NCBI GenBank assembly: GCA_013115125.1
Contig: JABANN010000162.1
Location: 1-58,738 of the forward strand
Direction of reading: 5' to 3'
Source: Perkinsus olseni
Lineage: Eukaryota
Length of the DNA: 58,738 nt
In this document: in pieces, positions 2,096 through 58,738 of the stretch
How the letters are laid out: each line of letters begins with the position of its first letter
Position numbering within the stretch: position 1 is the stretch's first letter
Translations under genes and position numbers: made by a program
Notes under the pieces: generated by a model
Database searches by the model: none
Seen by the model: only the letters and a program-made list of their open reading frames with translations
What the model was told of the DNA's origin: nothing

Positions 2096-2195
2096 GAAAT
2101 TGCTACCCAGGTGATCACGCTGGGTTGCGAAGGAACCCAGCGTTATGGACAGGGACGCGGATCCTTTCTAGGAGTCTCCCGAAAAAATGACGATA

Positions 2196-2240
2196 AAAAT
2201 ACCCTCACCGGGGATCGAACCCGGGACACCTAGTCCCCAA
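2196..2240 (-). pseudogene. tRNA-like 3' half (T-arm/B-box, acceptor-like end, T-run)
   Basis: Minus strand reads GGTGTCCCGGGTTCGATCCCCGGTGAGGGTATTTTT; the 5' half is degenerate. Confidence 0.6.
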
Positions 2241-2283: not shown

Positions 2284-4406
2284 TCACTGAGCGAATCGCA
2301 GAGAGCATTCGACCCCCGGCAAAACGGGTACGGCCGTATCTTTCTTTTTAACAAGCTGGACTCGGCAAAGATCTCCAACACGCAGCGGGCCGACGCCGGC
2401 CGGCGTGCCGGTGTAAATCTGACAAAAAAATGAAGAATATGATCGCAAGAGAAAGATGGACGGTCGTGCGTCTCTGTTCGAATGTCCCACTGAGAAAAGC
2501 TTCTCGACGAACCGTCTGATTGCACCGCATGACAATCGCTACAGAGAGTCCCTAACTGAGCGCTTCGACGAAAGTTTTCAAGCCAGGAGTGGCGTTGGAC
2601 TATAAACTCACACTCGCGTCGGGAGACCTGCGAAAATATAACCGGATCGCGGAGGACGATTAGCAGGCCGACAGGTTGAGCTGCTCATCAGCGCCCAATG
2701 AGCTCATCGCCATCACGATGACTCAGCCGGTGATGGCGTTGCCTTTTCGTGACACAAGTTTTACTCACAGACGGGCTGCAGCGCACCAGAGTATCGCGAA
2801 AAAATGAATGGGTAACGGGAAACTTCCCACTTCTCCTCACCAAGTCTCCTGCTGCGATCTCGTTTTTCTCAGCGATGTATCGGATGATGGCGGCCACCGG
2901 CCATATCATCTTGTCAAGTGTGGACTCCTGTCGGACTTCGCCATTGACCCTGAAGGAACCCTAGGAAACCAGCAGTTGACGAAGTCCCCATACTCACATC
3001 AAGCGAAGCAACGAGGTCGCCCACGGCAAAGGCTCTCGCAAAGGATACACCGGGCTGATCGGCGCCGAGTGATCGAAGGCCTTGGACTCCTCCCAAGGTC
3101 TCCGCATCGATTTGGCCTGAGTCGTTCAAGATCGCTTTCCATCGGAGACTACCGGTGGCAGCTGTTGATGAATATCGCTGAATTTTGCGGCAGAAACCCG
3201 CGGTAAGCAGGATTGAAAACACGCTATGGTTCGAAGTGTGCCAAGCAACGCACTCCCTTCAGGAAAGCTATAGAAGAAGCTTTTGATTATCATTGCATAT
3301 CGATTTGCGCAGGAAGCCCCCTAGGAAATGAGCACTTCGGTTGCGGCCTTGGACTACGAAATCACACACAGATAATGAAGCCAGCGATTGGTGTGCCATC
3401 GCCACTCGGGGTACTGCGGCGTTAGGAGGTGTTGCTGCTGCTGCTGCTGCTGATGGCCTCCTACCTTGGCCTGGACGTCTCGCTTGGTGAGGTCAATGCC
3501 AAGAGCATAACCGAAAACACATTGCCTGAGCAGCTCGTCATCATCTATGGTACGTTCACACACCTCAGAAGAAGCACCGGGGCCGAGGCATACCACCAGC
3601 TCCCCTTCATGATGAACATCTTCCGTACCTGCCTCGAAGTGGGGCTGAGGGGAACAGATCGCCGCTACTGAACGCCTTTCACAGCCATTCGGTCAGCACC
3701 CGACCGCCGAAGTTGACGAAGTTTTGGTATGGACCATGGGGAAGAGGGGGGCTTACACTTCGGGTAGGGCAACTCCAATAGCGTGGATCCCTCGGCAGGA
3801 GGCGTCACCGCGTCGAACGGCTTCATGAAGTAGAAAGGGGACTCTCGAGTGGGATCAGCGTTCATCTGAGGGAAGGCTGCGTTGTTGTAGAGAGGCGGAA
3901 AAGGCGAAGGTTCACTAACTCTGAGACTCAGCGTTGAATATCTCCTATGCTACCAATTACTAGCGGAGCGACGCAATCCGTATCGGTATGCAACCTAGGT
4001 TAACAGGTCAGCCTTCATTAATGCTGTTAATGATGGTAATATTATTTGCCAATATTTTCATACCACATTTCCCCATAATCACAACAGGTCTATCTTCTCG
4101 CTTCTCTCGCTGTATCCATTATTCCCAAGTATTAAGATATACCATCTTATACTATCAAGATATACCTCATACCTTCAGTGTTTTTATACAAAATATCTAA
4201 CCCGATTTGTGGAAGTGCATAATGGACCTCGGCTGCGTACTTTGGTGCGATGACGGAACCCCGGCCGTCCCCAGGATGCCGAGGCCCACCTCTATAGCGT
4301 GCTCAGTAAAGTTGCGGCCAATGCAGTATACTCTCCTCACTGGGTAGCTCTTGGTCGACCCGACGATCGGAATCGCGCGAATGGAAGCTTCAAAAACAGG
4401 CTTCAT
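2284..4406 (-). CDS. Fumarylacetoacetate hydrolase family protein (FAHD1/acylpyruvase-like), multi-exon
   Basis: Exons give VRRVYCIGRNFTEHAIE, PFYFMKP, VHHEGELVV, GYALGIDLTKRDVQAK, RPWEESKAFDHSAPISP, VNGEVRQ...MIW, and IYTGTPAGVGPL, all typical FAH-family motifs. Confidence 0.92.
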
Positions 4407-7066: not shown

Positions 7067-9693
7067 ATGAATAGCACAACAGAAGCTCCTACTGAATTTT
7101 CATTCGGCACAGTCGGAAAAGAGCAACCCAAGGACCTTCCAGTAGAGGTAAGATTCGACCGTTTCACGCACTAACGAATGACCGATGGAGTTCACGAGTC
7201 ATCAGGTCTATCCGCTGAAGAGCGACGTGTCGATTGACGAGGTTGCCGATGCACTGCGGGACGGTCTCGCCAAGGTTTTCAAGAACGTACCAAATTTTTC
7301 GTAAAACTTCTGGTAATTTTCCCTCCCCCAGATCAACGTGAGCGTCGTCGACTGCCCCGATCTCCGCGAGGCCCCGTATCTTTGCTCGAAGCCGGGTCTT
7401 GGCAGTAAGCTCGGCCATTCATAAAGATCTTCCGATTTATTCCTCGGTCGTGTCATCAGGCCCGGGCGAAGGCTCCGTCGTTGATTGCGGTGGATGCGCT
7501 TTGCTGTATCCGAAGGTCGACATCACCAAGGAATATGATATGCGCCAAATTGCTTCCATCGTTGACAACCATGGTCCTCTGGATACTGACGCTGAAAGCA
7601 CGGGTTGGATAAACGTCTTTCGGGATTTTCACTTCAACTCATCGCGTGATAGTCCAGAATAAGGGCGAACTGGCTTGTGACCGAGTCGCCTTGTCGCTGC
7701 TATGGTATTAGTGAGTCATGATGAGCCCTCGCCGGGCTGCTGTTGTTTGCCATTATTAATGCCATCTTCCCTCCTCAGTGTACCCTCCGTCAAGCACGGG
7801 CTCCTCCACATCCGGCAGCCCAACAGAGCGTTCGGGTCATCACAATCAACAACTGCCCCATCAGGAGTTCCACATACTGGGGGCCGGCGCTTGCGCTTAC
7901 TCGGTCACTGGACAGGTAGGGTGGCTGGGAAAGATACGGTCAAGGGTATCTTTGACACTTGTATTCGGCATGCTTCGACATGAGCCGCCATGACGTTCAA
8001 TATAGTCGTACGAGGACGATATTTTCGGCTAACTCATCCCTTGATCCTCGCGGATTTTTACGGTTTTTCTATCAGAACGGCGAGTTGGCGATTAACTGTG
8101 CTGAGGAAGGCGAACCCCACACTGCGTGTGGTGTTGTGTGCAAGGACTCAATGCCGGAGAAAAAGAACTACCACTCTTACCTTTCCGGGGTAAGCGTGAC
8201 GAGGGAGGATGATGCTCTGCTCATTGGCGTGCTTCCGATCGTTATGGCATCTCGCGTGAAAGCAAGTCACTCACAGATTTCTAGTTTTTCTGTGAGCTTG
8301 TCTTATCACACCATTATACTGTATGCGCTTCATGCATAAGTCATACGTGAACTACACGATATTTTACGTCTTTATTTTTACCGAGGAGGAATCCACTAAT
8401 AAAAGGTGGTGGACACCCTTCGGCCCCTCGCTGCATTAGTACTTTTCCGGAAAGTTACGGTATGGAATTCCGTAACAGCGGATATTTCTCTCCTCATCAT
8501 CTCGTCCCGAAACTGCAATGTTTTGCTTTTGACCTCGTTAGAGGATTTCTACGTAATATTTCCTGGAAAGCTGAGTTCATAAAATTAGAGATACGTTTTA
8601 ATAGAGTATTTGTGAAGTAATTAGTATTAACAACTAGTATTTTAAGTAAAGTAATGAAGTACTTTTCTGCTTTTCGATAAATCTTACAAAGAAAGATACT
8701 TCTTGTCTCTGCATTAAAAGATTCTTGCCGCATTCAGCTCGGCGCAGCTCAAATCGAACAGACCCTTGCTCTCATAAGCCTAGGCAACAGCGGCGATTGC
8801 AACGGCCGCTTCGTCCACCCTCAGCGTCGCCATATTCTTTCACAGTTGTTTTGCGAAGTTTTCGGTGCGTTGGCGTGTGTCTCGCGTATTCACTCAAACC
8901 TAGCGAATCATCCCGGGCATGGTTTTTGTCGCCACACGTCGTCGAGCCTCTTTTCTTATTGTTGAGAGTGTTCTGCTGTCGGTGTCTTCAGCCCTTGTGC
9001 AACGTCTTCAAGTGCACCGGTGCCCCAGGGAAGGTCTTGAGGGTCCATGCGGCCGCGAGGATGGATCCTGAGGTCGGCTCGGATATCGTGGAAACGATGA
9101 AGTCAATTTTGGAGGCCGCCTTCCCTCGCACTGTTTTGGGACTTGGAGGAGTCGTACTCGTTAAGAAAGGTACTTGTGGGACCGTTGAGGAAATGCAAGA
9201 TATCAAGATTTTTGCTGCTCAGGGAAAGTGATGATTCACGTAATGCACGACTTTACAGTGAAGCCCATCAGATCTCAGAAGTTCATCGACTCCGAATGGC
9301 TGAGGATGAAGGAAGCCGATACGCCCTTCACGAACTACACAGTTTGTAAGCCATCCACCCGGGTTCTATCCCCGGCAAGAGTATTTTCTGCTCAGTCGTG
9401 ACGAACCCTCCTACTGAGCTCGATCTACGCCCTTCTCATACACACGGATTTAACGATAAGGTTGCTGGGCATTATCACTACGATACCACACCTCTCCGTG
9501 TTGAGTAATAGGACACGGCTTCTTCGGAAGACCAGTTTCTCATGGCGATCATCGTGGCAGGTACGAATGTTATCTTCAACTTGCCGACAGCATATACAGA
9601 GTTGACCGCGTGCCACAGAGTCCTGACTTTGAGATGGATGTCAGCTCAAGAGAAAGTAACACCACTTCAAAACCGTGGACGCCTGAATCATGA
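7067..9693 (+). CDS. C11orf54/PTD012 (DUF1907) family Zn-dependent enzyme, multi-exon
   Basis: Spliced exons give INVSVVDCPDLREAPY, FHILGAGA, GAPGKVLRV, LGLGGVVLVKKGKVMIHVMHDF, LDLRPSHTHGF, GHYHYDTTP and IYRVDR. These match the family's SVVDCPDL, ILGAGA and HTH...GHYHYDTTP motifs. Confidence 0.88.
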
Positions 9694-10509
9694 TTTGCGG
9701 AAATTCAAGTTGGTTCAAGATTACAAGATTGGATCTTTTCCGTTTATGTAGAATCGTTGGATCGTTATACTTTATTGTTGCCTTTATTATATCTGTATTT
9801 ATATTTTTCCGCCCTTCTCGGCTGCAAGACTTTATTGTCGCCATAAGTAGTTTGGCACAAATTGGTTGGCAGCTGCTCTGGACCTGCGGTGTACAGTGAA
9901 TGTCCATACCACACCTTTCGTAAATAGTGCAGCATATTACATCCCTCCTGCTGCCGACAAGGCAGCACGCGGTTGTATCTCGTACGATTGGCGTGTTGTA
10001 TTACATCAGCGGGTGTTGCGTTAGTGACCGCCTCCTTCATCTCCCTCGGGGTTGCGCTTTGTTCCTGTTGTTGCAACAGTGTTGCACGATGTTGGAAACA
10101 TACTGCTTAACAAATGGTAAACAAGAACGGTTTTTCAAGACGCCTTCTCCATATGCCCAGAGTTCAAGTTGATACTTATTGAATCCTACTCTAGCGTTCA
10201 GAGAGCTTACCCTGCCTGCGACTTCCGACCGCTTAGCGTATGTTGGTCCCGTGTTGCCATAACGCACAAAAAATGGGACAGGGGAAAAATATGGCATGTG
10301 GGATTCGAACTTGGGCGTAGGTATTAGCGACTCAATGACCCACGACTCGGCCAGAATGGCATGATGTAAGCGTGAGCCTACATACTTGTCATTGTGATTG
10401 AAGCCAACATGGTCCTTAGCGATAGCTATTGTGCTGTGAAAGTTACTCAGAGACGGAACTGTACACTGTGTGACGTTCTCTGAAATCAGGTTGAGTATTA
10501 CTACACGAC

Positions 10510-16400: not shown

Positions 16401-16818
16401 GAATACCTGACTTTCACTGCCGGTGACAGCTAGAGGTGTCAGTATCGCCATAGTGGAATATCAGCAGCCTGCATCGCTGGCAAGGCCATCGGCCTCCGGC
16501 TAGCGGCAACTGTGCCACATGACCTGTATCTTGCGGCCGAAGTCTGGGCCAGACTGTCTGGTGGTGAGTTGGTTTAGCTCAGCTACTGATGGCTTCATCA
16601 ATGATGGTCTCGGGTTTTCAGAGGTTATCTTTTCCGTACTTCCGTCTTCATTGTGAACTGCGGGAACCGGCGGTGCATGGTCAGAAAGGCGAGAACAGTG
16701 AAGTAGACAATCTCTCACTGGCCGTAAGAATGGAGACAACGGCGAAAGCGACGTGCATGTCCTCAGGGCAGCTGGGCGGGTACGTTAGGGATTCATCCAG
16801 CTTTAACTTCAACATAAG

Positions 16819-28740: not shown

Positions 28741-29188
28741 GAGAAATGCTTGCCTTCGGCAAGCATTTTCCTCTCCCCGGATGAGCTGCGCATCCAGGTT
28801 CGATCCCCCCACTGGGCAGTTTTTTCTAGTCGATTATTTTGTGATGACTGTTCGGCTTGTTTGAGTTGAAGTGCTTTTCCCATTTTCCAAGCGCTTCCAG
28901 AATTGATTCGAATTTCCAGAATCATCCCCATGAGCACACTTTTAAACATTGCGGAGCGAGCGAAGCGAGCGGAGCATATATTACAGTTCACAGTCACTCG
29001 TGTGCGGCGTGCGTCCGTACGTCCGTCCGTGCGTAAGCACAAATTTCTGCTCAACTAGACGGTGTTAGGCAGCATGCAAGGCGTCAACACGCGCGTCCTA
29101 CTATTCTGATCACACAAAAAATATAGCGAAGTCTAAATTTTTCACTCCCCCACTTTCCAGCCAAAATAACTAATTGCGCAACTCTGTA

Positions 29189-29266
29189 AGATATGTAGTC
29201 CAGTAGGTTAAGGCTCAAGCCTTCTTTTCGATTCACCCAGGTTCGATTTCCACAAGCGACTTTTTT
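29189..29266 (+). pseudogene. Full-length tRNA-like pseudogene or SINE head
   Basis: A-box TAGTCCAGTAGG at 29196, B-box GTTCGATT at 29241 (45 nt spacing, as in tRNA), then TTTTTT; the stems are broken. Confidence 0.65.
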
Positions 29267-29881
29267 ATCTTTCCCTTTTTTGTTGCGATACTGTTTCCAG
29301 TTTTGTTTTTTGTTTTCGGGCCCTGCGATTGTCAAGTTTTGCTGTCGACGTCGCCGATCAACGAGACTTGAAGTTGGCCAGGTGGAACAGAATTGGCAAG
29401 GGAAAAGCCGCGGAAGAGCGCCGAGCCCTTGAACGTCGGTTACGCGCCGTGACTTCTGACTAGCTGCTACGAATTCTGCTATGTCGCTCGAGTTGTTGAT
29501 CGGTGTCCTTATAACTACCATTAGAATGTGCCCAATGTCGCAGCGTTCGAGTCTCTAACGGCGTTAAATCAACGCCAGCGAGCTCCGCCCCCTTCGCACT
29601 GAAGGCCTAGTGATTGAGCTGTGGCAACTGTACTCAAGGCTTGATTGCCTGTGCTGCTTGACTGCGGCGCGATGTGTTTGGCTGGTTGAGCTTGATAAAT
29701 GTTTCGCAAGCGGCTCTTATATTCTACGATAGCAGACGTGGATAATCCCATTTTCACTCGGAAAAAACTACATTCGGCACACTAAGAATAAGTGTTAGGC
29801 ACGCTCCCAGTCAGTCCAATTTCTCATCAGTATTTTCCTTGTACCCTTGATTACTCTCTTCCAATACCACCGCTGTGAATA

Positions 29882-32800
29882 ATGTACGTCTTATCGAAGA
29901 CTGTTGTTATAGCGGTCACGTGGCTGCTGCTGTTGATGGTATGTGGAGGGGACGCGGTAAGTAACCGAATAGACATAATGGGGTCAGCGACCATTTCCAC
30001 TGAGTTTCATGTTCTTCCGTATGTCGATAGGGGAGCGACTGTGATGAGATTCTTCACCGCCAGTGAAAATCGGCACGTAAAATCGGCATCGGTTACATAA
30101 AAATATCGTCTATGCTTATCGTCTGACTATTACAATTTCGTGGTGTATTAAAATAGTCGTGTAATGTTCAGTAGAATAATAGTGGTGCTTTTACGTAGTG
30201 CATATCCGAGTAACGGCAACGTAAATAGGTGGTCGGAAAAATCGCGAAAATTGCACCGTCATGAAAAATGGAGTTGCTAGTTAGTGGAGCGTTCAACACA
30301 CTAACTAGACGCTAGCCCTCGCCAGCCCTCTGCTGCCTCGGCTCGCCGGCCTCATCATACTGCCGAGAGCTACTGTGATCTTAACGGCGTACCAGATGTT
30401 AACATCAGACGAGCGAGCTTGTGTGACGGCCGTCTAGACGTTCATGTCTAGGCCAGCGCAGTTTGTTCAGGCGGAAGAAGCAATCGCTGGCGGAGGGTCG
30501 TCACCGGTGAACGACAAGTCGGGGGAACTGGATGGGGGTATCTTGGTCTACAACGACCTTGCCCATCGTGATGTGCTTTGTCGCTACATTCAGAGTAATA
30601 GAGGGCGGTTTTTTCATACGGTAATTTTGGTCGTGTCCAGTCCCGGCGGACGCCAGACGCATCCGAGCCACTGCTGCTGTCATCGGGCTGACCGGCAATC
30701 CTAATTTATTTGCCGGATTTGATGAACAGAAGTTGCGTGATAGAATTTACAAGGAGGCCGCCCCGACCAACCAGGGAGGTTATCATATGATACACGATAC
30801 GTAATGTTGGGGAATTTCGTGGCGCGTGACGGCTCATTGGGGCGGCGGTCATGGCTGCAGGTACTTCGTGCCAAAGTCGTCTGATGGTCGCTTCTATCTC
30901 TGCGTGACGACCTTTGCTACCCAGGGAACTGATTTTGTAAGGAATGCGCAAAAGTGTCGCTGCGGGGGATCGAACCAAGGACCTTTGGGTGACGAGGTCA
31001 GGTGCTTACTGGAGTGGTCTCGAATGCTGCTGAGTTCGGAGTGGAACCTGTGATGCCGCTGCTAATGGAGTACCCTACTGTCCAGAGTGTCGAGGCATTC
31101 GGCCGACACCGGGAGTATCGGGTACTAAGGGATGGACTGTCCCACCGCCTAGCGCGCCGTACACATAGCGCGTATATTGATTCTGGATTGAGAGCTTTCC
31201 ACGTGTGGCCCTACTGAGGGCTCTAGCGCGGGAGGGCTTTTCGTGACTTGGGTGCTGGTGGCGTAATAATTTCAAGAACGGTCGACTAAGAGACTTCGCA
31301 GCGTAGATTAGTATCGTGTCCGGTTGGTGATACGCGTAAGTGTCACACTACTTTGGGCGGTCAGGTGGTTCTGCCCAACGCGCCAGAGACGAGCGACGGC
31401 GCCGTCCCTCCTATCACCATCACAGTAGCACAGATAGTTGGAGAGACCGATCTAATGGTAGTAGTAGAGTTAGTTGCGATTTACGAGTGGAGTGGTATGA
31501 TAGGTGCACGCATGTGGTAGTGAGCAGTCATTGGCCGTGTCCGCTGTTGATGGCCCGGATACGGTGACGATTACGAATGAACAGCTCACCAGTGCTGGAC
31601 TCGGGCCAGGCTCTGAGCTCTGTGTTGTTGTTAAGACTAACAAGCTCTTCGCCAGTGCTTCTACGTAGGAGGGGTTTCGTGGCGCGGTGATGAATTTTGT
31701 GGCGCGGTGACAGGTTCTGGCTGGTGGTTTCGCAGAGTCCACAGGGACCTTTCGTTATGCAGAGCTTGCCGATGTATGCTGTGATACCAGGAAAGGGATC
31801 ACAGCGGGTGAGGAAGTTCCGCACCTATTTCAATAAGGGTAATCCAAAGGTCCCCGGATCGATCCCTGGTGAATGTAGTTTGTAGGTACTGATCTCACAA
31901 TAACTGCCAACCCGGTGTCGGCTAATGCAGTGAAGGAAGCGGCCAATAGACCTGGGGAGATCCAGGTAGTTAGTGGCGCATCTTTTGTTCCGTCTGGTAC
32001 CACCTCAACCTCGTGGAATCATCATGAAATTATTGTATTATCATATGACTTGCAGGATACTGATGGATCTCAGTATAAAAAATGCGTTACCATGTCATAG
32101 CGCGGTCGTGTACCTTGTATCAGCACATGGCGCGTATCTTTTTAGCGTGGACCTCTTTTGTATCTTACTATGATCGACCTTGTTGCTATCTTACTACGAT
32201 GAAATCCGCTGACAGTAGCTCTATTTCAGTCGGGATCCGTACCGCACATCGTAGCGGACACGACGCCCACCGGTCAAACGTGGAAGGACCACGGCGACGG
32301 TCACATCGCCATCGATAAGTCCAGCCTGGACGGCCACGCTGGCCAGGGCGAAATCGTTTACGTATCGGTCACACCACCCAACGATTGGCATGAGAATTCT
32401 GAGATGCCTTTCGAGCTCACAGTGACGACAAGTGAGTCGGGTGGGGAGGTTGTTCGGGTGAATTCAGCGGATCTTCTTTGCTGGTATGACGCCAGGAAAT
32501 GAAAACAACAGCGATGGCAGTTGAGGATATTGAAAATCTTCGTAGTGAGCGCGGTAATTAGACCCAGTTGGAAGAGCTATACAGTTCTAGGGGGAGTATC
32601 TTATGCTACTAAGGTGAAGTGGTTATCGAGACAGTAGTGATGGGAACTGGGAGTATTGAAAATCTTCATAGTTAGCGCAATGGTTAAACCCAGTGGTAAG
32701 AGCTAGGCAGCTCCGTGGGAGGGTATCTTGGTACTCTTGCGATTGATGGGTCAACCTGCGTCGTGTATTGGTCCATGTTCAGGTAGCACGGTCAGAGATC

Positions 32801-35800
32801 TACAGGATGGCAAGCCCACCACTGTGACCATCAGTGACTCGAGAAAGTTCCGGGATTTCCGGTAGTAACGGTCGTGCCGTTTCTGGTTAAGATTACCGTC
32901 AACGTCGCAATTTCGTCGCTGTACGTGATGAGAATTGAGAGTAATAAGCGTGCGGAGTATCCTTTTCGGAATGAGAGCAGTGACCGAAAAGGGCAGGCGC
33001 ATTATGCAGTGTTCGGAGGGGAACTGAAGCACGGATCTTCCGGCATGGATTTGGCAAGCGTCGACTTGCACGCACTACGAATTTTTGTCATCAAATTTTA
33101 TAATGGGCTAAGGGGTGGAGTATCTTTTGGCCGTTTCAGATACTGGGTGCCCAAGCATGCCAGAGTGGTGCTCTCTATAATAGGAGATTCGTCGAAGGAT
33201 GGAAGTGGTCTGGCGATATTCGCGGACACCACCAGATACAGTCACGATCCTCGAGGGTAATCTTGCAATCTTGCGTTTCCTTAACGCTAACTGGCATCTG
33301 CAAGGTATACGTTCAATACGATGGAAGGGTCCAACGAGATTTTCCTTACCAATATGAAGTACTATGCGCAGTCCCATCCTGGCAAGGTAAGGGGGTTTTG
33401 TAATCCCGAATTGGGAGAAATGTGGTATGAAAATGACTTCCAGGTTCAATACGTCAACTGCGATATGGGCTATATTTACCTGACTGTTAAGAGCTGTGCT
33501 GTAGCCAACGGCAAATGTGTTGAGGATGCCTCCGTGCCTTCGACGTTTACGTTGACGGTGTCCAGTGATACCGGTAGTAGTAGCGGGGGTAGAAGATCTG
33601 AGGATCGTGGTGGTGTATGGAGGGGCGCTCGGAATGATGTTAGGAACAGAGCGCAATGGCATGAATTCACTTTTATTCGAGGCGCGCACGTCCCCTAGAT
33701 GGATATGAGCGCATAGTGACTGAAGCGGTGGTAGTGATGTTTCTCATGGGGTATCTTAGGGTCGACTCACGTTCAAGATGGAGTGCCGATCCATGAGAAG
33801 GTTCACATGGCGAAGAAATTTGTTTATACTAATCCTATGTTGGATAAGAAGGTGGAGAAGAAGGAAGTAGAGGAAAGCGCGGGAGAGGTAGTTGAAGATG
33901 TCGGCTCTGGGAGTCGAACCGGGGGCCTTTGGGGGCGCTATAGAAGATGCGACTGATCTACGTAGTTGAAGCAGCTCTGTCTTGATCCGGTTCGTGGTAG
34001 ATGTAGTCAGCTCGTTAGGCGTTGCGATTGTCATTCCTCTTCGTGCAGGGAAGTGGAAGCAGACAATAGTTCACTATGAGAGATGTGGTTCGTCCGGGGA
34101 TCGAACCGGGGACCTTCTGTATTTAGGATAACTCGAAGGATGATGGATCTGACTCTTCCTCGATACACTTCAACGACTTGTTGGTGAAGGCCTCGGTGAA
34201 TAGCGGCAGAGGGTCGCTGATGCTGAGCAATGACGAGAACTTCGCAACTAGTAGGTGCCAGCGGCTGGGTTTGAACCCGGGTTGTCATGCGGTTCGTCTT
34301 AGGCACGCAAGCAGTATTCTGCGGCTATGATGACGCTGGCGATACGAAGGCTGACGGCGGGAACATCTGCACCTTCGTTGTCAAGAAGGACGATCCAATT
34401 CGGAGCAGCAAATATATCTACGCAAAACTGGTACGAGGCGCAACCGCGATGATATTTGTGCGGGGTATCTTGGTTGTTACTTTGGTCGGATGCTCGCGCA
34501 AAGATATTTCTACGAGATGTTTTCTCAGTGGGGAATCAGAGATGAATTCTTCTGAGGTTTTGCTCTTCGTCTCAGATACCGGACCTTACGGATGGTACGG
34601 GTACTGCGTTGCTGGACTTTGACTTTTTGATGGCTGATGTTGGTGGAGAAATTGTGATGAAAAATCATCAGCCGGTTAATGACGCTATGTCGGCTGGGGG
34701 CAGTCGGAAGTATAAGATTTTTATACCTGCGTCTACATCGAGGTGAGTATCTTAGGTTGAAGCTGGCAAGATACAGAGTGGGTCAAGATGATTTGAGTGG
34801 TGCTTTCTCAGTTCTTCTAACACTCCTTCGCCCGTTTCTGCGATGTTTGACGTGTCTAAGACTACTGGTACGGTGGAGTTCGACATTTGCGATGCCGCTG
34901 AGTAAGTTGAAACGCTCTCCCTGGGGTTCGATCCAGGGTTGCTCGCATGTGGTACCGGCTATATGTCTGATTCAGGAATTGCAAGACTATCAAGGGTGAT
35001 GGTTCAGCACAATTGGAGGAGAACACCAGCAAGGGGAATGTTGCCGGCAAGTGGATTCATGTAAGCAGTCTCCGTGCGACGATCCATCTTGATGTCCGCT
35101 GTTTTTGCCGGGCAAGTCGTCCGCGGCCCACTGATCCTTTGATCGATGGTTTCGGCGTTGTTCCGATCGTGTAGCTCGGCCAAGCACTTCTCAGTTCGGG
35201 CTAAGGACCGATTCTGACGGACTTAGTGGTACCGATGTCTTCCGGGTATTTTCATGAATCATCTTGTGGAATGCAGAAAGGCTGCATTGATTCAGCTGGC
35301 AGGTGCATGCTAAGTGTGAGGACAAGTGCTCGTACCGGATCACTGGAGCCTTCTTCCTCAAGTCCAACTCGTTGAGACTGAACTATAGGCCCATGACAGT
35401 CCCACTGGATGGCGGCAGCTTCAAGGACTGTAATGACTCGGGTTCGACCCCTGCAGTCGACGATCATTCGGAATCCTTTCAGGGATGGTTGGGTATAAGG
35501 ACACCGATCACTGGCTTCTCCATACAGAGGTCCGAGGGCAGGAGGCCGATGCTGTTAAGACTTGTATTAAGGACCAATGTTGTAATATAACCGGAAGTAT
35601 TCAAGTCATTTTACTGACACTTCTAGCTGTCTTGTGGGCGTTATGGCCGATTTCACTCGGCACTTGTACATCATCGACTAGTCTTTCCTGTTCGATAGGT
35701 ACGGCCGGGACATGCACCCTCTACGGCTTTGGAAAGGAGATCGCCAAACTGGAGAACTTGAAGAGCGACACGATCACCTACGTCCAGCTGTACTATGCTC

Positions 35801-38800
35801 TTGTGTGCCTTGCGATGTTCGGATATGCTCTCGGCAGGTGGGCTACGAAGTTGAGCTTCCCGGCGATGGACGAGTGGCTGGATGTTACCAAAAGGGGCAG
35901 CAATATCTACAGGCTGAATACCAACTCATTGGTGTCATTTGACGCTGAGAAATCCAGCACGGTAAGAGCGGTGGGGAGAGGTGGGCGTATCTTTATGTTG
36001 AAGCGTGTAGTTCGTGGAATCGAGGATGCGATCACTGGCGCTATTGGCACGTGCGGCCCAGGTTAGCTCTTTTCTTGTAGCTTTTCGAATGGCAGTGGCA
36101 TGAACAGAATTGCTCGCCGAAGTGGGGCGGGCTGTCCGAGGCTTGATTCATCTTTTTCTGTGTTGCAGTTCAGCACTGGAGCGAAGGTGTCAGTATCGGA
36201 TTCTCTGTTCGGAGATTACCAACCACTGAGCGGCGAGAATCTGATCGACTGCACCGGCAATAAAATGAAGTTTGTGAAGGTGGGTGGACCTACGCATTCT
36301 GGCGTAGTGGTTATGATGTGTGTAGGTTGATGGGACGTCCCGGGTTCGAATCCATGCGCCGTTAAATCTTCAAGTCGGCGAGTGGGCGTATAACCCTCAC
36401 TGGGTTATGTGGGGTGGCAGCTCCCTCAAGCAGAACGTCCACGTGGAAAGCTGCAACCTCGAGCCGGCTGATGTGCTGGTCAATGGTGATACGCGGAAGG
36501 AGATTCACTCCGACTGGACTGGGGGCGTCTGACAGGCACGGCTGTTGATATGTCGTCTGCCCATAATTACGCCGCGAATGATGCCAACTCGCTGCTGCTA
36601 ACGGCCGGCGACGCAACAGTAGCTTACCGAGTGGGGCTGTTCAATCAGGTTGGTCAGCATGGAGGATATCTTCGAAGGAGCAGTTGTTATTGTTGTTATC
36701 CAGGTCCCCATCCCACTAACGGTACACTCTAGTCGGCAGAGTCTGGAATTCATCGCGCCGCCTAATGCCCAGAACAGCCTGTAAGCTCGGGCCTCGAGTC
36801 GTTGGTCGCTGTATCAAAGCTAAGGTGGAGATTGATTAGAATTAGGATTTGCTTCGTGGATGGAATGTTGAATCCGGCGCAATTCGGTCTATACTCTGTC
36901 GCTAAATCTGGCTGAGCCAGTCGATTGTTGTCGAAAAACTGGCTCTATTTTGGAAGCCGAAGGCCTTCAGTCAGCTACAGACTTCAGTCAGACATCACAT
37001 TCCGTATGTCAGTGGATTTGATGTGTATTCAAAATGAGTCGTCCATGGCAAACCCCTTTCTATAATGGTTAAAAAATGCCTGGAAGCGCACGGCGTACGA
37101 ACCGGATGGCCGTTTATGGCGATAGATTCTCCTCTCTCATCCGCCATTCCCAAGCCTCATCGCTTCGAGCCTGCTGGGAGTGATTGTAAGTTCAGTTCAG
37201 TTGTGAGTTCTAGGGCGCGACTCTCTTTCGAGTCTCTCCCGACTTCCGTACTGAGAGTCCGTATCAGTACAGCAGGCCTTCAATTCTTCGTGCAGTGCAC
37301 TCGTCACAGAGAATTGAGGGCGTTGTCGTACGCCGACAATGAGGATAACCTTCGATCGAATCACCGGGCAGCTAATCGCCTTCGGGCGAGCGTGCGCACG
37401 CGTGCGTCGAGCGTAATTTATCAGAGGAGTTGGGAACACTCAAATTAAGGAGTGGTAATAAATGGAGGCTAGTGAATGGACATGAGGACCTACGAAGATC
37501 GGCTCAGCGGTACCTCGGCCGTGGGGACGTCCCAGGGTATTGCGGCGGGACTCAGTCTGGGTTGATACGGTCGTGTTCTGTAGTTGCCCGGAAACCTGTC
37601 GCATTAAGGTGTTGCACTAGGGTCCTGGGTATGGCTGAGGATGCCGCCATCCGAGACGATGTATCTATCCCTCGCATACGGAACTCCCTGGCTGGCATAC
37701 GAATTATCGGTATGATCACTGACCCTTACGCCAAGTGAAACGCCTGATCGTTCGATGTAGAGAGAGTAGCGCCTACATCCTCGCTGATGCAGACGTTGTT
37801 CGGACCGTATAGCTATGCCTGAGCCTCCACCCTCGGAAGGTCAAGTCCCGAGCTGAGCCTCTCACCTAAGGAGCTCGAGGAGCTCTACTCTCAACATTCG
37901 AGTCTCTCGTCCAAGGAGCTTGGCTGCACGAACCTCGGTGAATTCGACTTCGAGACACTCTCAGAAGAGCCGGTCTACATTAGACCATTTAGGCTTAATC
38001 CTAAGAAGACCCAAAAGGTCGAAGCACTACTGAGAGACTTTGAAAAGCAAGGGTTCATTGAACCCGCGAAGTCGGACTACTCATCTCCAGGGTTTGTCAT
38101 CTCCAAGAAGGACGGCTCAAATCGGTTAGTCATCGACTACCGGGCGCTGAACAAGCGCACAAAGAGGGATCGGTATATAGGGCCAGCCGTAGATCAGATC
38201 ATCACGGGGCTGAGCGAGGCAAGATGCTTCAGCAGCATAGACTTGAAGCATGGGTTCCACCAGATTAAGGTATCCGCCTCGGCAAAAAGGAAGCTAGCGT
38301 TCTCGGTCGGTGGTCGGCAATATACATGGGCTCGTATGAGCATGGGACACTGTAATTCTCCCAGCTGCTTTCAAAGGATCATCGATAAGGCCCTAGGCCC
38401 GCTCGTCGGGTTATGTTGCTATGTGTATCTCGACGACGTTATCGTCTTCTCGAGAGACCACTCCTCTCATATGCGAAGTCAGAGATTTGATCACGTCGTT
38501 GAAGAATGAATGGATATCGGGCTTCGTGGACATCAGACTGGGCGGAATGCCATACGTAAAGAGCGGCCATCACGCCACCGCCTACGGCATGGCGCGCATG
38601 ATCACGCGTGATGCCGGGGCTTTTATTACCAGTCTAGCATCAATTTCATTGGGTTTTCGATACGGATCTGGCCCGTCGTGACAAGTTTGTAGCAGACTGT
38701 CCCGACAAGGAGTTATTCGCTTGGTTCAAGAGACTGATGTCGAACCAGGGACCATAGTGTCCCCAGGATTCGCCAAGGATAGAGGCCGACTTAATTCTAA

Positions 38801-40121
38801 GCCTCTCTCAGTGCAGCATGAAGCTAGCACGCCTCAAGACAATTAACGAATCGGCCTAATCGTCGTAGCATCGGCAGTGTAGTTCTATACTAAGGGTGAT
38901 GCAACGATTGAGACTTAATGAGTGTGCGGTGTGGGGGGTTTTCTGATCATTGACTGACGATAGGATCGCGAAAATCGGAGTAATTTACCTCCTATACGCG
39001 GGTAGCGAATTTCCTGGTAACTTTCCGCTCAGCGGCGGGCGCGGCCGCAGAGCAAGTCATCGCTTTTGCGTCAGGTACCGAGTCATCTGCAGTTCCAAGT
39101 ATTCCTCAGCAAGCTCCTGTGCGTTGGAGCTGTCGGAATCGACTCTCCACTCAGCATGGACCGGTTGTAAAGGAGATCGAAGGTGCTCCATTACTGTGCC
39201 CTCCGAATGTAAGCATTGTCACTGTTGGGAATCGAACCCGCCTTCTCTTCAATCTGGGCTCGTCCATGCCGACCGGACTCTGCCGAAGATGGATTGATGA
39301 TTAGCGATTGGTGCCACTGATAGAAGGGAACTCCTTCACAGGTCTCGCCGAAGGCTCCCGATTGAGCGTGGAAGCCCGCAAGGGTCCGATCTACGGCCTC
39401 TTCCACCCAGCCACTATGACTGGAGCGGGAGTCGCTGATAGCGGAGCAGCAGCAGAAGGCAAGGATGGCTTGGGAGTAGTAGAGGAGCTTCCCACAGGTA
39501 AGTAGCGCTCGCCCGATTGATCGATTATCCTATGATGATCAGGGAAACGATGGAGCTGGACCTCTCTCTTCCTCCTTTCGGCCTTGGCGTACATGGTTGT
39601 TCGGTGTATCTACAACATGCATGTGTATGGGGCCTCTGGGTTGGAAGCCGTACCGCATATCGACACAATGCGCCGTGCGATGTTCAATCTCCAGCACCTA
39701 AGGTAGGGAAGAGATCGAGCGAGGTCTAGCGTCCGCGTGCGGTTTGTGTCTTCGTTGGTGGCGAGGTCAGTGGGCGAACTGATGTTCTGTGCGGTCGCTA
39801 GAGGTGGTCGCTGCCGCTATAGTTTGATATAATGATCATGTATCAACAACAAGGGTATGGACACTGCATGCTCTCATGCAGTGTATTGAATGAATTTAAG
39901 GACTTGGTGTATCGCAGGAGTGTGAACTTGTTTCGGGACCACCGCTTCTTTTGTGCGTGCAAATTTTGTTTGGTATAAAGTGCGTGTTTGTGTGTTGGCA
40001 AAGGCAAACAAACGCTCGCATTTCCTTTCATGTCGTAGTTTTTCCGATTTTGTATGACGAATTTATACGCACAACAGGTTAACTGAGACCGTAGGCATCC
40101 TTTCTACGTGCAATTGTGGTG

Positions 40122-40170
<49 letters not shown>

Positions 40171-40430
40171 GCTCTCTCCATATGCTGAGGGCTCTGATTG
40201 AGTACTTGTCACAATTTGTTGTTCGCAGGTGGTCGAGGAAGTTCTGGCATTCGGACAGTAGTACTCACATGATGGAGTTGGGCACGGAGATGGACTACCA
40301 TGACATCGAGAGCAATCGTGACCATGGCACCACCAACACAGGCGGTTATCGGCGTCATGATGTTGGCCAGCAATTAACGAGCAGGCCCAATTCGACCTAC
40401 GCTCCGCTACGTTACGAAGAATCTTTGTAG
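29882..40430 (+). CDS. Large multi-exon type-I membrane, receptor-like protein
   Basis: Signal peptide exon MYVLSKTVVIAVTWLLLLMVCGGDA; many short in-phase exons (YFVPKSSDGRFYLCV, YWVPKHARVVL, QYVNCDMGYIYLTV); late TM WSWTSLFLLSALAYMVVRC followed by YNMHVYGASGLEAVPHIDT; tail ends TYAPLRYEESL*. The join across 36.9-39.0 kb is inferred. Confidence 0.6.
32526..32729. repeat. Diverged direct repeat (two ~77 nt copies, period ~126 nt) in an intron
   Basis: TATTGAAAATCTTC...ACCCAGT...AAGAGCTA...GTATCTT occurs at 32526-32602 and 32651-32729. Confidence 0.8.
37824..38473 (+). mobile_element. Ty3/Gypsy LTR retrotransposon reverse transcriptase fragment, 3'-truncated
   Basis: PVYIRPFRL, GFIEPAKSDYSSP, KKDGSNRLVIDYRALN, FSSIDLKHGFHQI, MGHCNSPSCFQR and YVYLDDVIVFS; homology stops just after YLDD. 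Confidence 0.92.
40122..40171. repeat. (TTG)n microsatellite, intronic
   Basis: About 16 perfect TTG units. Confidence 0.97.
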
Positions 40431-41378
40431 ATCATCATAATACCGTTTACCTGAAGAGCAAGAGTTCCTGTTGCTTTGTTATCGTAGTAGATGATATCTT
40501 TGCTTCTATCAAGTATGTACTTTGGTTCGAGGTTCATCAATCGCTGGGATATCGCTATAGATGGATGCGTTGATAATTCTATACCGTTTTTCGCCCGCAT
40601 CATCCAGTAGGGTGACCGCTCTTCGGTAGGTTCTTGCTTTTGCGTGTGAGTGAGTTTTCAGCCAAAAAGGCTTGCTGAGGCCCTGCCGTGCCCTCATTTT
40701 TTGGGGGCTTTACGAACAGACGTATTGCTGTTGTCGACTATGGTGAATCGCCATTGGTGATGCCCGACTTCGGACGCAACTGTCTCGAACGGCCATCGGG
40801 CCCTTCGCCGCTGCGGCTTGTTATGTATTTCAAAAAATATCGGTAGCGCTGAAAGACGACACTGATGATGCCACTTTAGTTTTGTGAATGTATGGCGCCT
40901 CTTCGACGGCCGAGTTCTTGCGGAACTTCGCACGGAAGACAGCTACGGCAATCTGGATGTTCGGCCCACCTTTAGTGTGGATCAAGGATCGTGTCGTCGA
41001 TATCGAGATTGTGAGTCCACGGCCGCTCCGACCCCCCTCAAGTACTCCTCTTTAGGTGCAAGGGCACTCGATGAGCCCGACCCTCAACCCGGGTAGTAGC
41101 TGGTTCCGTGATAGAATTATCGTACTGCGGAATCTCGTGATTGGCCCGGGCGATGTGGTGACGTTTTGGGACCCCTTCGACCCTAAAAGGTGATGCTAGG
41201 CAGGGACCTTGTCTTGAGCTATTGCCGCTGGATTGCTGCTGTCTGGATTGTTGTGACGGCGATTTTGAATTCACTCTCCCGTGATCAACGGCGGAGCTTG
41301 GAAGTTTTAATGGGCAGCATCAGGCGGAGCGATGTTTTTAAGAGTTTTTCGACTAGGGTGGTACGGTAAATTGAACTG

Positions 41379-41477
41379 NNNNNNNNNNNNNNNNNNNNNN
41401 NNNNNNNNNNNNNNNNNNNNNNNNNNNNNNNNNNNNNNNNNNNNNNNNNNNNNNNNNNNNNNNNNNNNNNNNNNNNN
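41379..41477. other. Assembly gap (N run)
   Basis: Run of n characters. Confidence 1.
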
Positions 41478-41555
41478 GTATGTATGTATGTATGTATGTA
41501 TGTATGTATGTATGTATGTATGTATGTATGTATGTATGTATGTATGTATGTATGT
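41478..41555. repeat. (TATG)n microsatellite abutting the gap
   Basis: Perfect GTAT/TATG units directly after the N run. Confidence 0.97.
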
Positions 41556-42268
41556 GTGTGTTTTAGGCATCTGGTGAAGCGAGTGGTCGCAGTCGAGCCA
41601 CGGCATCGTCGGCCGTCGAGTGTGCGTACTGTGGATGACTACGACGAATTGGGTGGTGCTGGTGGTATAGATGAAAGTACCCACAGTGTGGCCTTTGAAG
41701 ACCTCGGCGGCAGAGTGTAAGCTAGACTCGGGAATGCATGGCCAGACCGCTGGTCGTGTCAGATACGTCCTGGGCGACAATAAAGACCGGAGCGTCGACA
41801 GCAGGTACGGAAATCTCGACTGATGTTTATCCAGTTTTTTGAAGAAAATGTTCTAGGGAATACTCCCTCTAATCGCTTCCGCGTATTCAGCGTCGTCCAA
41901 GCTTCCTGAGTTGATTTGAGCCGCAGATTCGGACTTCCTACCGATCCCGATCCACTGACGCTATTCGCTCCGCCGTGAACCTGTCATCATATCGGGGAGA
42001 AGGAACCTTCGTCGCTTGGGCAATCCATATGAATGTTCCTATCAAGCGTTCCCCATCTTTAGATACTTCGGCCCTATCCCTCAGCCGCTCATCGATGGTC
42101 TGGTCGTCGGCGTCATCTGGCCGCCATGGCGAATGTCTTGGGTGCCGCGACCGCCTCCTGATGTCGATGACGAGGTTGATGATCGATGACCCGTTTCCTG
42201 CAACCCGTTCTGCTTCGCGCTGGCAGCCTGTGGCCTTTCATCATTCTCTAGCTTCATTCATTGTTACC

Positions 42269-58669: not shown

Positions 58670-58738
58670 GCCCGATTAGTTCAGCTGGATAGAATGTCTG
58701 CCTACGGAGCAGATGGTCGTAGGTTCGAATCCTGCATC
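58670..58738 (+). tRNA. tRNA-Arg(ACG), last few nt cut by the window end
   Basis: Acceptor 5' strand GCCCGAT, D-arm GTTC-AGCTGGATA-GAAT, anticodon arm TCTGC-CTACGGA-GCAGA, T-arm GTAGG-TTCGAAT-CCTGC, then ATC pairing with the acceptor. Confidence 0.92.

What the first reader, a model, noticed from the sequence alone, without database searches (positions are those of the whole stretch)
30937..39260. Short spliceosomal introns packed with tRNA 3'-halves/B-boxes of apparently different isotypes
Seen: eight introns of this one gene carry a variable-loop/T-arm/acceptor-like tRNA fragment. They are 30955-30992 (antisense, CCCAAAGGTCCTTGGTTCGATCCCCCGCAGCGAC), 31839-31885 (sense; the 47 nt intron is almost wholly GTAATCCAAAGGTCCCCGGATCGATCCCTGG), 33899-33934 (antisense, CCAAAGGCCCCCGGTTCGACTCCCAGAGCCGACA), 34086-34126 (antisense, CAGAAGGTCCCCGGTTCGATCCCCGGACGAACCA, Val-like), 34256-34287 (antisense, CCCGGGTTCAAACCCAGCCGCTGGCA), 34913-34950, 35430-35482 (sense, GGGTTCGACCCCTGCAGTCGACG, Ser-like end) and 39217-39250 (antisense, GGCGGGTTCGATTCCCAACAGTGACA, Leu-like end). 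The 3' ends differ, so they do not look like copies of a single SINE. Known: GGTTCRANNC is the TFIIIC B-box. Inference: either tRNA fragments are repeatedly captured and intronised (a tRNA-derived intron-gain route), or intronic B-boxes are kept as TFIIIC/chromatin or splicing signals. Isotype guesses come from resemblance to generic eukaryotic tRNAs only.
Basis: partly seen in the sequence, partly recalled or inferred. Interest (0 to 1): 0.9.

Follow-up and report, generated by a model that had tools for sequence, protein, structure and literature searches.

The report
tRNA-gene scraps inside Perkinsus introns
Many short introns of an oyster/clam parasite (Perkinsus) gene really do contain about 35-base leftovers of the tail end of tRNA genes, most likely decayed insertions from a few tRNA types; whether they build introns or serve any function remains open.

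Summary
The B-box word GGTTCRANNCC occurs 11 times in the window against about 1 expected. The eight listed fragments exist. Spliced, spliced-leader-capped transcript contigs and orthologous proteins show that they lie in seven real GT..AG introns, not eight: two sit at the two ends of one 239-nt intron. The organism is a Perkinsus, closest to P. olseni.

Each fragment is variable loop + T arm + 3' acceptor strand + discriminator. None has CCA. Six of 13 are followed by a T-run (chance 2.3%), so they were copied from tRNA genes or primary transcripts. None is an intact tRNA. They form two groups plus about four singletons, so they are neither one SINE nor eight isotypes. Similar fragments lie in a 50-nt intron of a second gene and in intergenic DNA.

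At least six of the seven fragment-bearing intron positions recur in P. marinus or P. chesapeaki gene models, so recent intron gain is not supported. One exonic B-box lies in ancestral coding sequence.

Best reading: decayed, 5'-truncated tRNA-gene-derived insertions. Intron building or TFIIIC sites remain possible.

The parts
29830..40430 (+). Host gene: trans-spliced, 31 introns placed, secreted/membrane protein with a C-terminal ATG27-type domain
   Evidence: Spliced contigs and a loose end matching the spliced leader at 29829. Open frame after splicing. Orthologues P0001-P0003. Pfam PF09451 on P0001.
30937..31001 (+). Intron I4 (65 nt). Holds the antisense tRNA-like fragment 30950-30987, which is followed (in tRNA sense) by CTTTT.
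   Evidence: Exon-sum arithmetic. Orthologue junction GTDF|VLTG. nhmmer E 3.6e-6. T-run.
31839..31885 (+). Intron I8 (47 nt). The sense fragment 31844-31881 fills about 38 of the 47 nt.
   Evidence: Contig-coordinate arithmetic (125+80=205 nt). Junction FNK|GTDL in orthologues. nhmmer E 1.1e-5.
33888..34126 (+). Intron I15 (239 nt). Two antisense fragments, 33895-33931 near the 5' splice site and 34083-34118 next to the 3' splice site.
   Evidence: Joint 33885>34125 (cut +2) in four runs. nhmmer E 9.7e-5 and 2.5e-5. The two share only 5 of 11 acceptor-side bases.
34251..34302 (+). Intron I16 (52 nt). Antisense fragment 34253-34288.
   Evidence: Joint. Junction NFATS|TQAV. nhmmer E 8.4e-4.
34902..34975 (+). 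Intron I19 (74 nt). Sense T-arm-like hairpin plus acceptor-like stretch at 34913-34950; the B-box has one mismatch.
   Evidence: Joint. nhmmer E 0.07. One-mismatch list.
35430..35482 (+). Intron I21 (53 nt). Sense fragment 35431-35465, which starts at the T stem.
   Evidence: Joint. Junction SFKD|WMVG. nhmmer E 3.8e-5.
39209..39341 (+). Intron I29 (133 nt). Antisense fragment 39212-39247, 8 nt after the 5' splice site.
   Evidence: Orthologue junction PSEC|LAEG and tblastn. Depth bins 134+84=218, against 219 seen. nhmmer E 3.5e-4.
36280..36369 (+). Intron I25 (36280-36325) holds an A-box-like word. The exonic B-box at 36343-36353 is probably not tRNA-derived.
   Evidence: Contig coordinates. 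The coded segment is present without a gap in homologues of 34-39% identity. T stem not paired.
9346..9395 (+). 50-nt intron of a second gene (DUF1907). The sense fragment 9354-9388 plus TTTT fills most of it.
   Evidence: Junction TNYTV|FVTNPP in four Perkinsus orthologues. nhmmer E 4.1e-5. Perfect 5-bp T stem and T-run.
2195..2231 (-). Best-preserved fragment: perfect T stem followed by TTTTT. It lies in non-coding DNA just upstream of a long DHHC-domain reading frame (1232-2167). Whether that is an intron or a flank is not verified.
   Evidence: nhmmer E 9.5e-7.. The homologue search for the neighbouring frame found nothing.
28787..28823 (+). Intergenic tRNA-like 3' fragment followed by TTTTTT.
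   Evidence: (E 3.2e-4).
29189..29267 (+). Near full-length decayed tRNA-like unit followed by TTTTTT, about 560 nt upstream of the gene's trans-splice site.
   Evidence: nhmmer E 0.028 for 29233-29263. Found by ARAGORN only at 80% thresholds, where 49 calls were made in the window, so this is weak.
10286..10311 (-). Weak tRNA-like 3' end (B-box with one mismatch) followed by TTTTT, in DNA that looks non-coding.
   Evidence: nhmmer only E 3.1.
58670..58738 (+). The only intact tRNA gene in the window, cut off by the window end.
   Evidence: Rfam RF00005, 49.4 bits, E 1.4e-7.

Best explanation
The fragments are decayed, mostly 5'-truncated copies of the 3' part of tRNA genes: from about the variable loop to the discriminator, often with the downstream T-run. 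They come from a few source types, two recurrent ones plus singletons. They have landed in non-coding DNA of a Perkinsus genome, in either orientation, and persist where nothing selects against them: introns and spacers. They are not working tRNAs and are not needed as RNA structures.

Shown: tRNA-gene likeness, intronic position, several sources, both orientations, and absence of CCA. Inferred: copying is anchored at the 3' end of the gene or primary transcript and stops at variable points upstream. This would fit abortive reverse transcription of pol III primary transcripts, or capture of tRNA-gene DNA/RNA as filler during break repair. Break repair with local deletion would also explain why the fragment has replaced most of the older sequence in minimal introns. 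The copying mechanism itself is not shown.
For: B-box word: 11 found against 0.94 expected. Excess only at 0 mismatches (11 vs 0.97) and slightly at 1 mismatch (30 vs 22.7).

In 13 fragments, A at position 73 in 10. At least 4 T within 10 nt after position 73 in 6, against 2.3% by chance. No CCA.

No intact tRNA: ARAGORN found 0; Rfam found only the true tRNA at the window end.

Outer T-stem pairs: 17 of 39, near the chance level of 37.5%, which means decay.

Acceptor-side identities give two groups: 30966, 33910, 39228, 29240, plus or minus 35441 and 10301; and 2211, 9362, 31856. Four are singletons. 8 of 120 pairs reach 7 of 11 or more, against about 0.9 expected.

In the host gene, five fragments are antisense and three sense to the gene, or four sense counting the exonic 36343.

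By place: 8 of 13 fragments in the seven introns of the host gene, 1 in a DUF1907 intron, 3 intergenic, 1 unverified.

The 5' limits differ between related copies: 2211 and 9362 agree at 18 of 22 positions from the core onward but at only 5 of 13 upstream.

P. marinus is reported to hold more than 500 copies of just five tRNA gene types (PMC3706591, sections 10 and 13 read). A large donor pool therefore exists.
Against: Five minimal introns (47-65 nt: I4, I8, I16, I21 and the DUF1907 intron) consist mostly of the fragment. Simple insertion into an older intron cannot give that; it needs replacement, or origin of the intron from the insert.

Fragment density in this gene's introns (8 in about 6.6 kb) is roughly tenfold that of the rest of the window (5 in 48 kb, coding share not measured).

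The specified B-box positions have only 5 mismatches in 117, while the outer T-stem pairs are at chance level. CpG is not depleted (observed/expected 0.96 in the window, 1.08 in introns). Neither CpG decay nor plain ascertainment easily explains that contrast.

No target-site duplications or poly(A) tails were seen, so a classical retroposition signature is missing.
Confidence: 0.5

Rival explanations
1. Intron-building element. A tRNA 3' part with its T-rich trailer inserts into coding sequence and is spliced out. In sense orientation the trailer serves as the pyrimidine tract and 3' splice site. Many minimal Perkinsus introns would then descend from such inserts, gained before the living species split.
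For: The fragment plus trailer fills about 38 of 47 nt in I8 and about 38 of 50 nt in the DUF1907 intron. Both are sense copies of the same group, start right after GTAA(T/G), and end in T-rich sequence plus YAG. I16, I21 and I4 are similar. The host gene has 31 introns in about 4 kb of mRNA.
Against: The junctions are shared with P. marinus and P. chesapeaki models, so no recent gain is visible. No target duplications: a third-base match between intron start and next exon in only 5 of 17 GT cases (read by eye). Five of the eight intronic fragments in the host gene are antisense. Fragments also lie in long introns and in spacers. Copies share little beyond tRNA-conserved positions.
Confidence: 0.2
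2. The B-boxes are kept by selection as TFIIIC-binding (extra-TFIIIC-like) sites or other DNA-level signals, clustered in and around this gene. The rest of each tRNA copy is free to decay.
For: The specified B-box positions have 5 mismatches in 117, while positions 59-60 and the outer stem vary freely and the outer pairs are at chance level (17 of 39). No CpG depletion that could explain faster stem decay. Both orientations occur, as expected for a DNA signal. Ten fragments lie within about 11 kb (28.8-39.3 kb).
Against: The set was found through the B-box, so it is biased. About half of the fragments still have good T arms (2211, 9362, 31856, 34097, 35441, 34925). The poor ones mostly belong to one group, which may descend from an already degenerate master copy. 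No occupancy or cross-species data. One perfect B-box (36343) is explained by ancestral coding sequence, and one (27803) by a plain hairpin.
Confidence: 0.2
3. All fragments are old copies of one tRNA-derived SINE or MITE.
For: Four fragments share the word CMRAAGGYCC before the T arm. Group A has 4-6 members in 58 kb.
Against: There are at least six different acceptor strands. Most pairs share 2-5 of 11 acceptor-side bases, as random pairs do. No shared body or tail beyond position 73 other than T-runs.
Confidence: 0.08
4. Chance or composition: G+C-rich short introns happen to contain the word.
For: About one match per window is expected. Two of the 11 (27803 and 36343) do look like chance.
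Against: 11 against 0.94 expected; none of 100 shuffles reached 11. Flanking variable-loop words, acceptor-like strands and T-runs at the right distance.
Confidence: 0.02

Closest known systems
tRNA pseudogene fragments and tRNA-derived SINEs in introns of animals and plants
   Same: Pol III-gene-derived sequence with a B-box, scattered in both orientations through introns and spacers and decaying. Multiple copies per locus.
   Different: Here only the 3' third to half of the tRNA plus terminator is present. There is no SINE body or tail and there are no target duplications. Several source tRNAs are involved. The host introns are so short that the fragment is most of the intron.
Introner elements (Micromonas, Aureococcus, some fungi, Amoebophrya; the Amoebophrya case seen in passages of PMC7789003; the rest recalled)
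   Same: Repeated sequence that makes up whole short introns. The lineage is close to dinoflagellates, where invasive intronic elements are described.
   Different: Introners are near-identical families with inverted repeats or target duplications, and their presence varies between strains. These fragments share only tRNA-conserved positions, lack such ends, and sit in introns whose positions are shared by three species.
Extra-TFIIIC (ETC) sites / chromosome-organising clamps of yeasts (recalled, not read here)
   Same: Isolated B-boxes without a working tRNA gene, possibly relics of tRNA genes.
   Different: No binding data here. These still carry acceptor strands and terminators, and they lie inside introns of a pol II gene.
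Dada DNA transposons of Perkinsus marinus that insert into tRNA genes (PMC3706591, sections 10 and 13 and passages read)
   Same: Same genus. This shows that tRNA genes there are very numerous and are disrupted by mobile DNA.
   Different: Dada inserts at the A-box region (target TAGCTC) and would leave a much longer 3' part. No Dada sequence was looked for or seen next to these fragments.
Filler DNA captured at repaired double-strand breaks; intron gain by break repair (recalled from the Daphnia and yeast literature, not read here)
   Same: Short foreign pieces of 30-40 nt in either orientation, replacing local sequence.
   Different: A preference for tRNA-gene 3' parts as filler has not, to my knowledge, been described. 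Nothing here shows a break.

Membership tests
Functional tRNA gene | Full cloverleaf detected by a tRNA finder or covariance model | tested here: not met
   ARAGORN at default settings: 0 genes in the window. Rfam: only 58670-58738 passes; no hit at E<=10 in 33800-36500.
Functional tRNA gene | Five paired T-stem positions | tested here: not met
   Outer three pairs: 17 of 39 paired over 13 fragments. Only 2211 and 9362 are perfect.
tRNA-derived SINE | tRNA-related head with A and B boxes, then a body and a tail shared by the copies | tested here: not met
   Only positions from about 39-49 to 73 are present. No A-box enrichment (15 vs 10.8 expected). No shared sequence beyond position 73 except T-runs.
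tRNA-derived SINE | Copies collapse to one consensus | tested here: not met
   At least six acceptor types. 8 of 120 pairs reach 7/11 or more, in two groups.
Introner element | Near-identical copies making whole introns in many genes | tested here: inconclusive
   Two same-group sense copies make most of I8 and of the DUF1907 intron. They share only 6 of 11 acceptor-side bases.
Introner element | Target-site duplications or terminal repeats at the intron ends | tested here: not met
   None seen in the boundary lists. The GT that starts 17 of 30 downstream exons does not extend to a third matching base more often than chance.
Introner element | Presence/absence of the intron between close relatives | tested here: not met
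   The junctions of I4, I8, I16, I19, I21, I29 and the DUF1907 intron are the same in P. marinus and/or P. chesapeaki protein models.
Extra-TFIIIC site | B-box consensus without a working pol III gene | tested here: met
Extra-TFIIIC site | TFIIIC occupancy; conservation above the flanks in relatives | not testable with these tools
   No chromatin data and no orthologous DNA. Within-window contrast only.
LTR-retrotransposon primer-binding site | 12-18 nt complementary to a tRNA 3' end including CCA, next to an LTR | tested here: not met
   The fragments are about 35 nt, lack CCA and have gene-type trailers. No LTR adjacent.
Integrase attachment-site duplicate of a tRNA 3' part | Two like copies flanking an inserted element | tested here: not met
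   The two direct fragments at the ends of I15 share only 5 of 11 acceptor-side bases.

The most novel reading that the evidence does not exclude
In Perkinsus, 3'-anchored pieces of tRNA genes (T arm, acceptor strand, terminator) are a recurrent raw material of minimal spliceosomal introns. They either founded these introns before the genus radiated or replaced their content through break repair. Their B-boxes are then held by selection as TFIIIC-type DNA signals inside pol II genes. This would link pol III gene fragments to both intron origin and chromatin marking in a sister lineage of the dinoflagellates.
Probability: 0.2. Interest if true: 0.8.

Novelty: new variant of a known kind. Interest (0 to 1): 0.5.

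Why it matters
If the pattern holds genome-wide, Perkinsus would offer a datable, sequence-identifiable source for the content, or even the origin, of minimal introns. The source of new introns is a long-standing open question. Public genomes of three species make the test straightforward. It would also bear on why this genus carries hundreds of tRNA gene copies. If it does not hold, the finding is an ordinary case of pol III-gene relics in non-coding DNA, made conspicuous by very short introns.

Tried and rejected
- Whole genome and relatives are not held. The genome's own tRNA set, genome-wide counts and sister-species DNA could therefore not be used.
- Earlier-findings look-ups returned nothing.
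- Rfam with E-value thresholds gave no partial tRNA hits. The model does not report internal fragments, so this says nothing about fragments.
- ARAGORN at relaxed thresholds (80%: 49 calls; 70%: 269) is noise.
- Automatic exon solvers were too permissive, found nothing, or timed out. I placed the unprinted introns by hand from contig coordinates, depth bins and orthologue junctions.
- A scan of metagenome contigs for orthologous DNA found none.
- P. chesapeaki reads through intron I19 as 12 codons. A brute-force deletion test could not say which 38 nt are missing relative to this window, and the model may hide its own intron. I kept this only as a lead that the fragment may be absent there.
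- A-box words are not enriched.
- Flank-only searches (acceptor words, variable-loop word) found no further copies with decayed B-boxes. Power is low.
- CpG decay as the reason for broken T stems is not supported (CpG observed/expected about 1).
- The idea that the GTAA at the start of I8 and of the DUF1907 intron is the anticodon loop was dropped. The two copies are unrelated upstream of about position 48.
- The idea that the G-run+GTATCTT motif is the extreme 3' end of group-B copies was not supported: the fragment profile does not find those sites.
- A homologue search for the frame next to fragment 2211 found nothing.
- Supplementary files of the papers were not consulted. Repeat libraries listed there could name a family.
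- Literature searches that found no description of tRNA fragments in Perkinsus introns.
Full report
**What the window is**

The window is nuclear DNA of a Perkinsus. Two transcript contigs end, at 29829 and at 40878, in the same ten extra letters. Followed by the genomic AG, these equal the 3' end of the spliced leader PmaSL1 printed in PMC3101222 (passages read). An exon of the gene in question is 96% identical to a P. chesapeaki protein and 94% to a P. marinus protein. An exon of a second gene is 100% identical, over the aligned part, to two P. olseni proteins. No whole genome is held for the window.

**The observation**

The word GGTTCRANNCC occurs 11 times, against 0.94 expected and a maximum of 4 in 100 shuffles. 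With mismatches allowed, the excess sits at 0 mismatches (11 vs 0.97) and slightly at 1 (30 vs 22.7). There is none at 2 (241 vs 259).

**Are the segments introns?**

A spliced contig of about 4.0 kb, seen in four runs of which one is a declared RNA library, covers 29.8-40.5 kb on the + strand. It has 32 joints. The 15 joints printed are all GT..AG. Joining the exons from 32227 to 36484 gives exactly the 2046 nt that the contig coordinates require, and one open frame of 682 codons.

I placed the joints that were not printed by three means:
- contig coordinates;
- depth bins, since depth divided by contig depth gives exonic bases per bin;
- a loose end in run X7 that joins 29956 to 30471.

The exon sum from 29829 to 31502 comes to the required 700 nt. 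Three orthologous proteins give the same junctions, and tblastn of them onto the window agrees. I could place 31 introns. Sixteen of the 30 listed are 46-74 nt long, and the 31st, placed, is 45 nt.

The fragments lie in I4 (30937-31001), I8 (31839-31885), I15 (33888-34126, two fragments), I16 (34251-34302), I19 (34902-34975), I21 (35430-35482) and I29 (39209-39341). That is seven introns, not eight.

**Anatomy of the fragments**

Put in register on the T loop, 13 fragments in the window show the following:
- a T loop;
- a 7-nt acceptor-like strand;
- A at position 73 in 10 of 13;
- at least four T within 10 nt after position 73 in 6 of 13, where a random 10-mer of the window has this in 2.3% of cases;
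- no CCA after position 73 in any of them.

Four also carry the variable-loop word AGGYC just before the T stem. They therefore look like copies of genes or primary transcripts, not of mature tRNA.

None is an intact tRNA. The three outer T-stem pairs are paired in 17 of 39 cases, close to the 37.5% expected at random. About half of the fragments still have good T arms (2211, 9362, 31856, 34097, 35441, and 34925 with a one-base shift).

In the host gene five fragments are antisense to the gene and three are sense. An RNA-level splicing role is therefore unlikely.

**One family or many?**

Over positions 63-73, random pairs of window 11-mers share 7 or more bases in 0.7% of cases. Among the 120 pairs, 8 do so. 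They define two groups:
- group A: 30966, 33910, 39228, 29240, and more loosely 35441 and 10301;
- group B: 2211, 9362, 31856.

Fragments 34097, 34267, 34925 and 28797 stand alone.

Related copies differ in where the likeness starts. 2211 and 9362 agree at 18 of 22 positions from the core onward but at only 5 of 13 upstream. Outside the tRNA-like part, blastn finds nothing shared. The set is therefore neither one SINE nor eight different isotypes. Isotype names could not be tested.

**Beyond this gene**

A profile built from the fragments (circular for its own members) also points to 9354-9388, 2195-2231, 28787-28823 and 29233-29263.

The first of these fills most of a 50-nt intron of a DUF1907 gene. 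The junction TNYTV|FVTNPP is exact in four Perkinsus orthologues.

Site 29189-29267 is a near full-length decayed unit with a terminator, upstream of the host gene. Sites 28797 and 10301 are in spacers. The context of 2211 is unverified.

Of the 39 introns placed in the two genes, 8 carry a fragment.

**Age**

At least six of the seven fragment-bearing intron positions, and that of the DUF1907 intron, are the same in P. marinus and/or P. chesapeaki models. The introns are therefore older than these species. Whether the fragments are equally old cannot be seen without DNA.

The P. chesapeaki model reads through I19 as only 12 codons whose ends resemble the ends of this intron. That would leave no room for the 38-nt T-arm-like core. 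My deletion test could not place the gap uniquely, and the model may hide an intron of its own. This is a lead, not a result.

**The exonic B-box**

The word at 36343 lies in the exon that starts at 36326. An A-box-like word lies 43 nt upstream, in intron I25, which looked like a whole tRNA unit split by a splice site. However, the 15 residues coded there are conserved in the two other Perkinsus species. They align without a gap to homologues of 34-39% identity, and the T stem is unpaired. The coding part is ancestral, and this match is best counted among the one or so expected by chance. The match at 27803 is another such case; it is part of a plain hairpin.

**Mechanism**

My best reading, at about even odds, is relics of 3'-anchored, 5'-truncated copies of tRNA genes from a few sources. 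A large donor pool fits: more than 500 copies of five tRNA gene types are reported for P. marinus (PMC3706591, sections 10 and 13).

Two things do not fit a plain relic story.
- In five introns of 47-65 nt the fragment is most of the intron. The older content must therefore have been replaced, or the intron began with the insert.
- The specified B-box positions show 5 mismatches in 117, while the neighbouring stem is at chance level. CpG is not depleted. To detect this many very old copies by luck would need far more copies than the window can hold. One group descending from an already degenerate master copy would soften this point.

These two misfits keep the intron-building and TFIIIC-site readings alive, at about one in five each.

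**Literature**

My searches found no description of tRNA fragments in Perkinsus introns, nor of tRNA-derived introners. The library lacks most subscription journals and I could not open supplements, so a named repeat family may exist.

Noticed in passing
window 29829-29830 and 40878-40879: Two trans-splice acceptors. Contigs carry the same ten non-genomic letters before the AG, matching the 3' end of the published Perkinsus spliced leader. The second acceptor starts the next gene (S26-type peptidase, exons 41116-42186).
   Followed up: partly
all introns of the gene 29830-40430: 17 of the 30 introns listed are followed by an exon that begins with GT, and 24 of 30 by one that begins with G. The 3' boundary therefore reads YAG|GT far more often than usual. 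The upstream exon ends in AG in only 7 of 30.
   Followed up: partly
introns I9, I10 (x2), I11, I14, I17, I18, I24 and others; e.g. 32596, 32723, 33120, 33751, 34465, 35987: A sense-only motif: a G-run followed by GTATCTT. It occurs 9 times on the + strand against 1 on the - strand in 6604 nt of this gene's introns. Its distance to the splice sites is not fixed. Its meaning is unknown.
   Followed up: partly
30813-30830 vs 2084-2101(-); 33417-33434 vs 4054-4071(-); 35612-35631 vs 16425-16444(-): Exact or near-exact 18-20-nt repeats shared between introns of this gene and distant places in the window. The first also occurs twice, slightly changed, in intron I7.
   Followed up: no
32432-32782 (intron I10): Tandem duplication of a unit of about 126 nt inside a 351-nt intron. 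Each unit ends in the G-run+GTATCTT motif.
   Followed up: no
36781-39074 (intron I28), frame 37823-38509: A 2.3-kb intron holds a fragment of a Ty3/gypsy-type reverse transcriptase frame with a YLDD motif (the family label is my reading of the frame, no family search was run). A separate unspliced contig covers 36866-39008 in one run.
   Followed up: no
P0001, P0003 against the window: Database gene models of the orthologues contain errors. The P. marinus model P0003 fuses this gene with the next one. The P. chesapeaki model P0001 reads through introns I13, I19 and I27 as coding.
   Followed up: partly
41379-41477 and 41478-41552: A run of 99 N followed by a (TGTA)n microsatellite, which Rfam mistakes for a microRNA precursor.
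   Followed up: no
about 43.7-44.9 kb vs 50.0-51.2 kb: An inverted duplication of about 1.2 kb, with further copies of parts near 49.5 kb. Seen as paired k-mers and identical contexts.
   Followed up: no
29299-29767: Unspliced contigs in three runs cover the stretch between the decayed tRNA-like unit and the trans-splice site. This may be the discarded upstream part of the pre-mRNA, or a transcript of the opposite strand.
   Followed up: no
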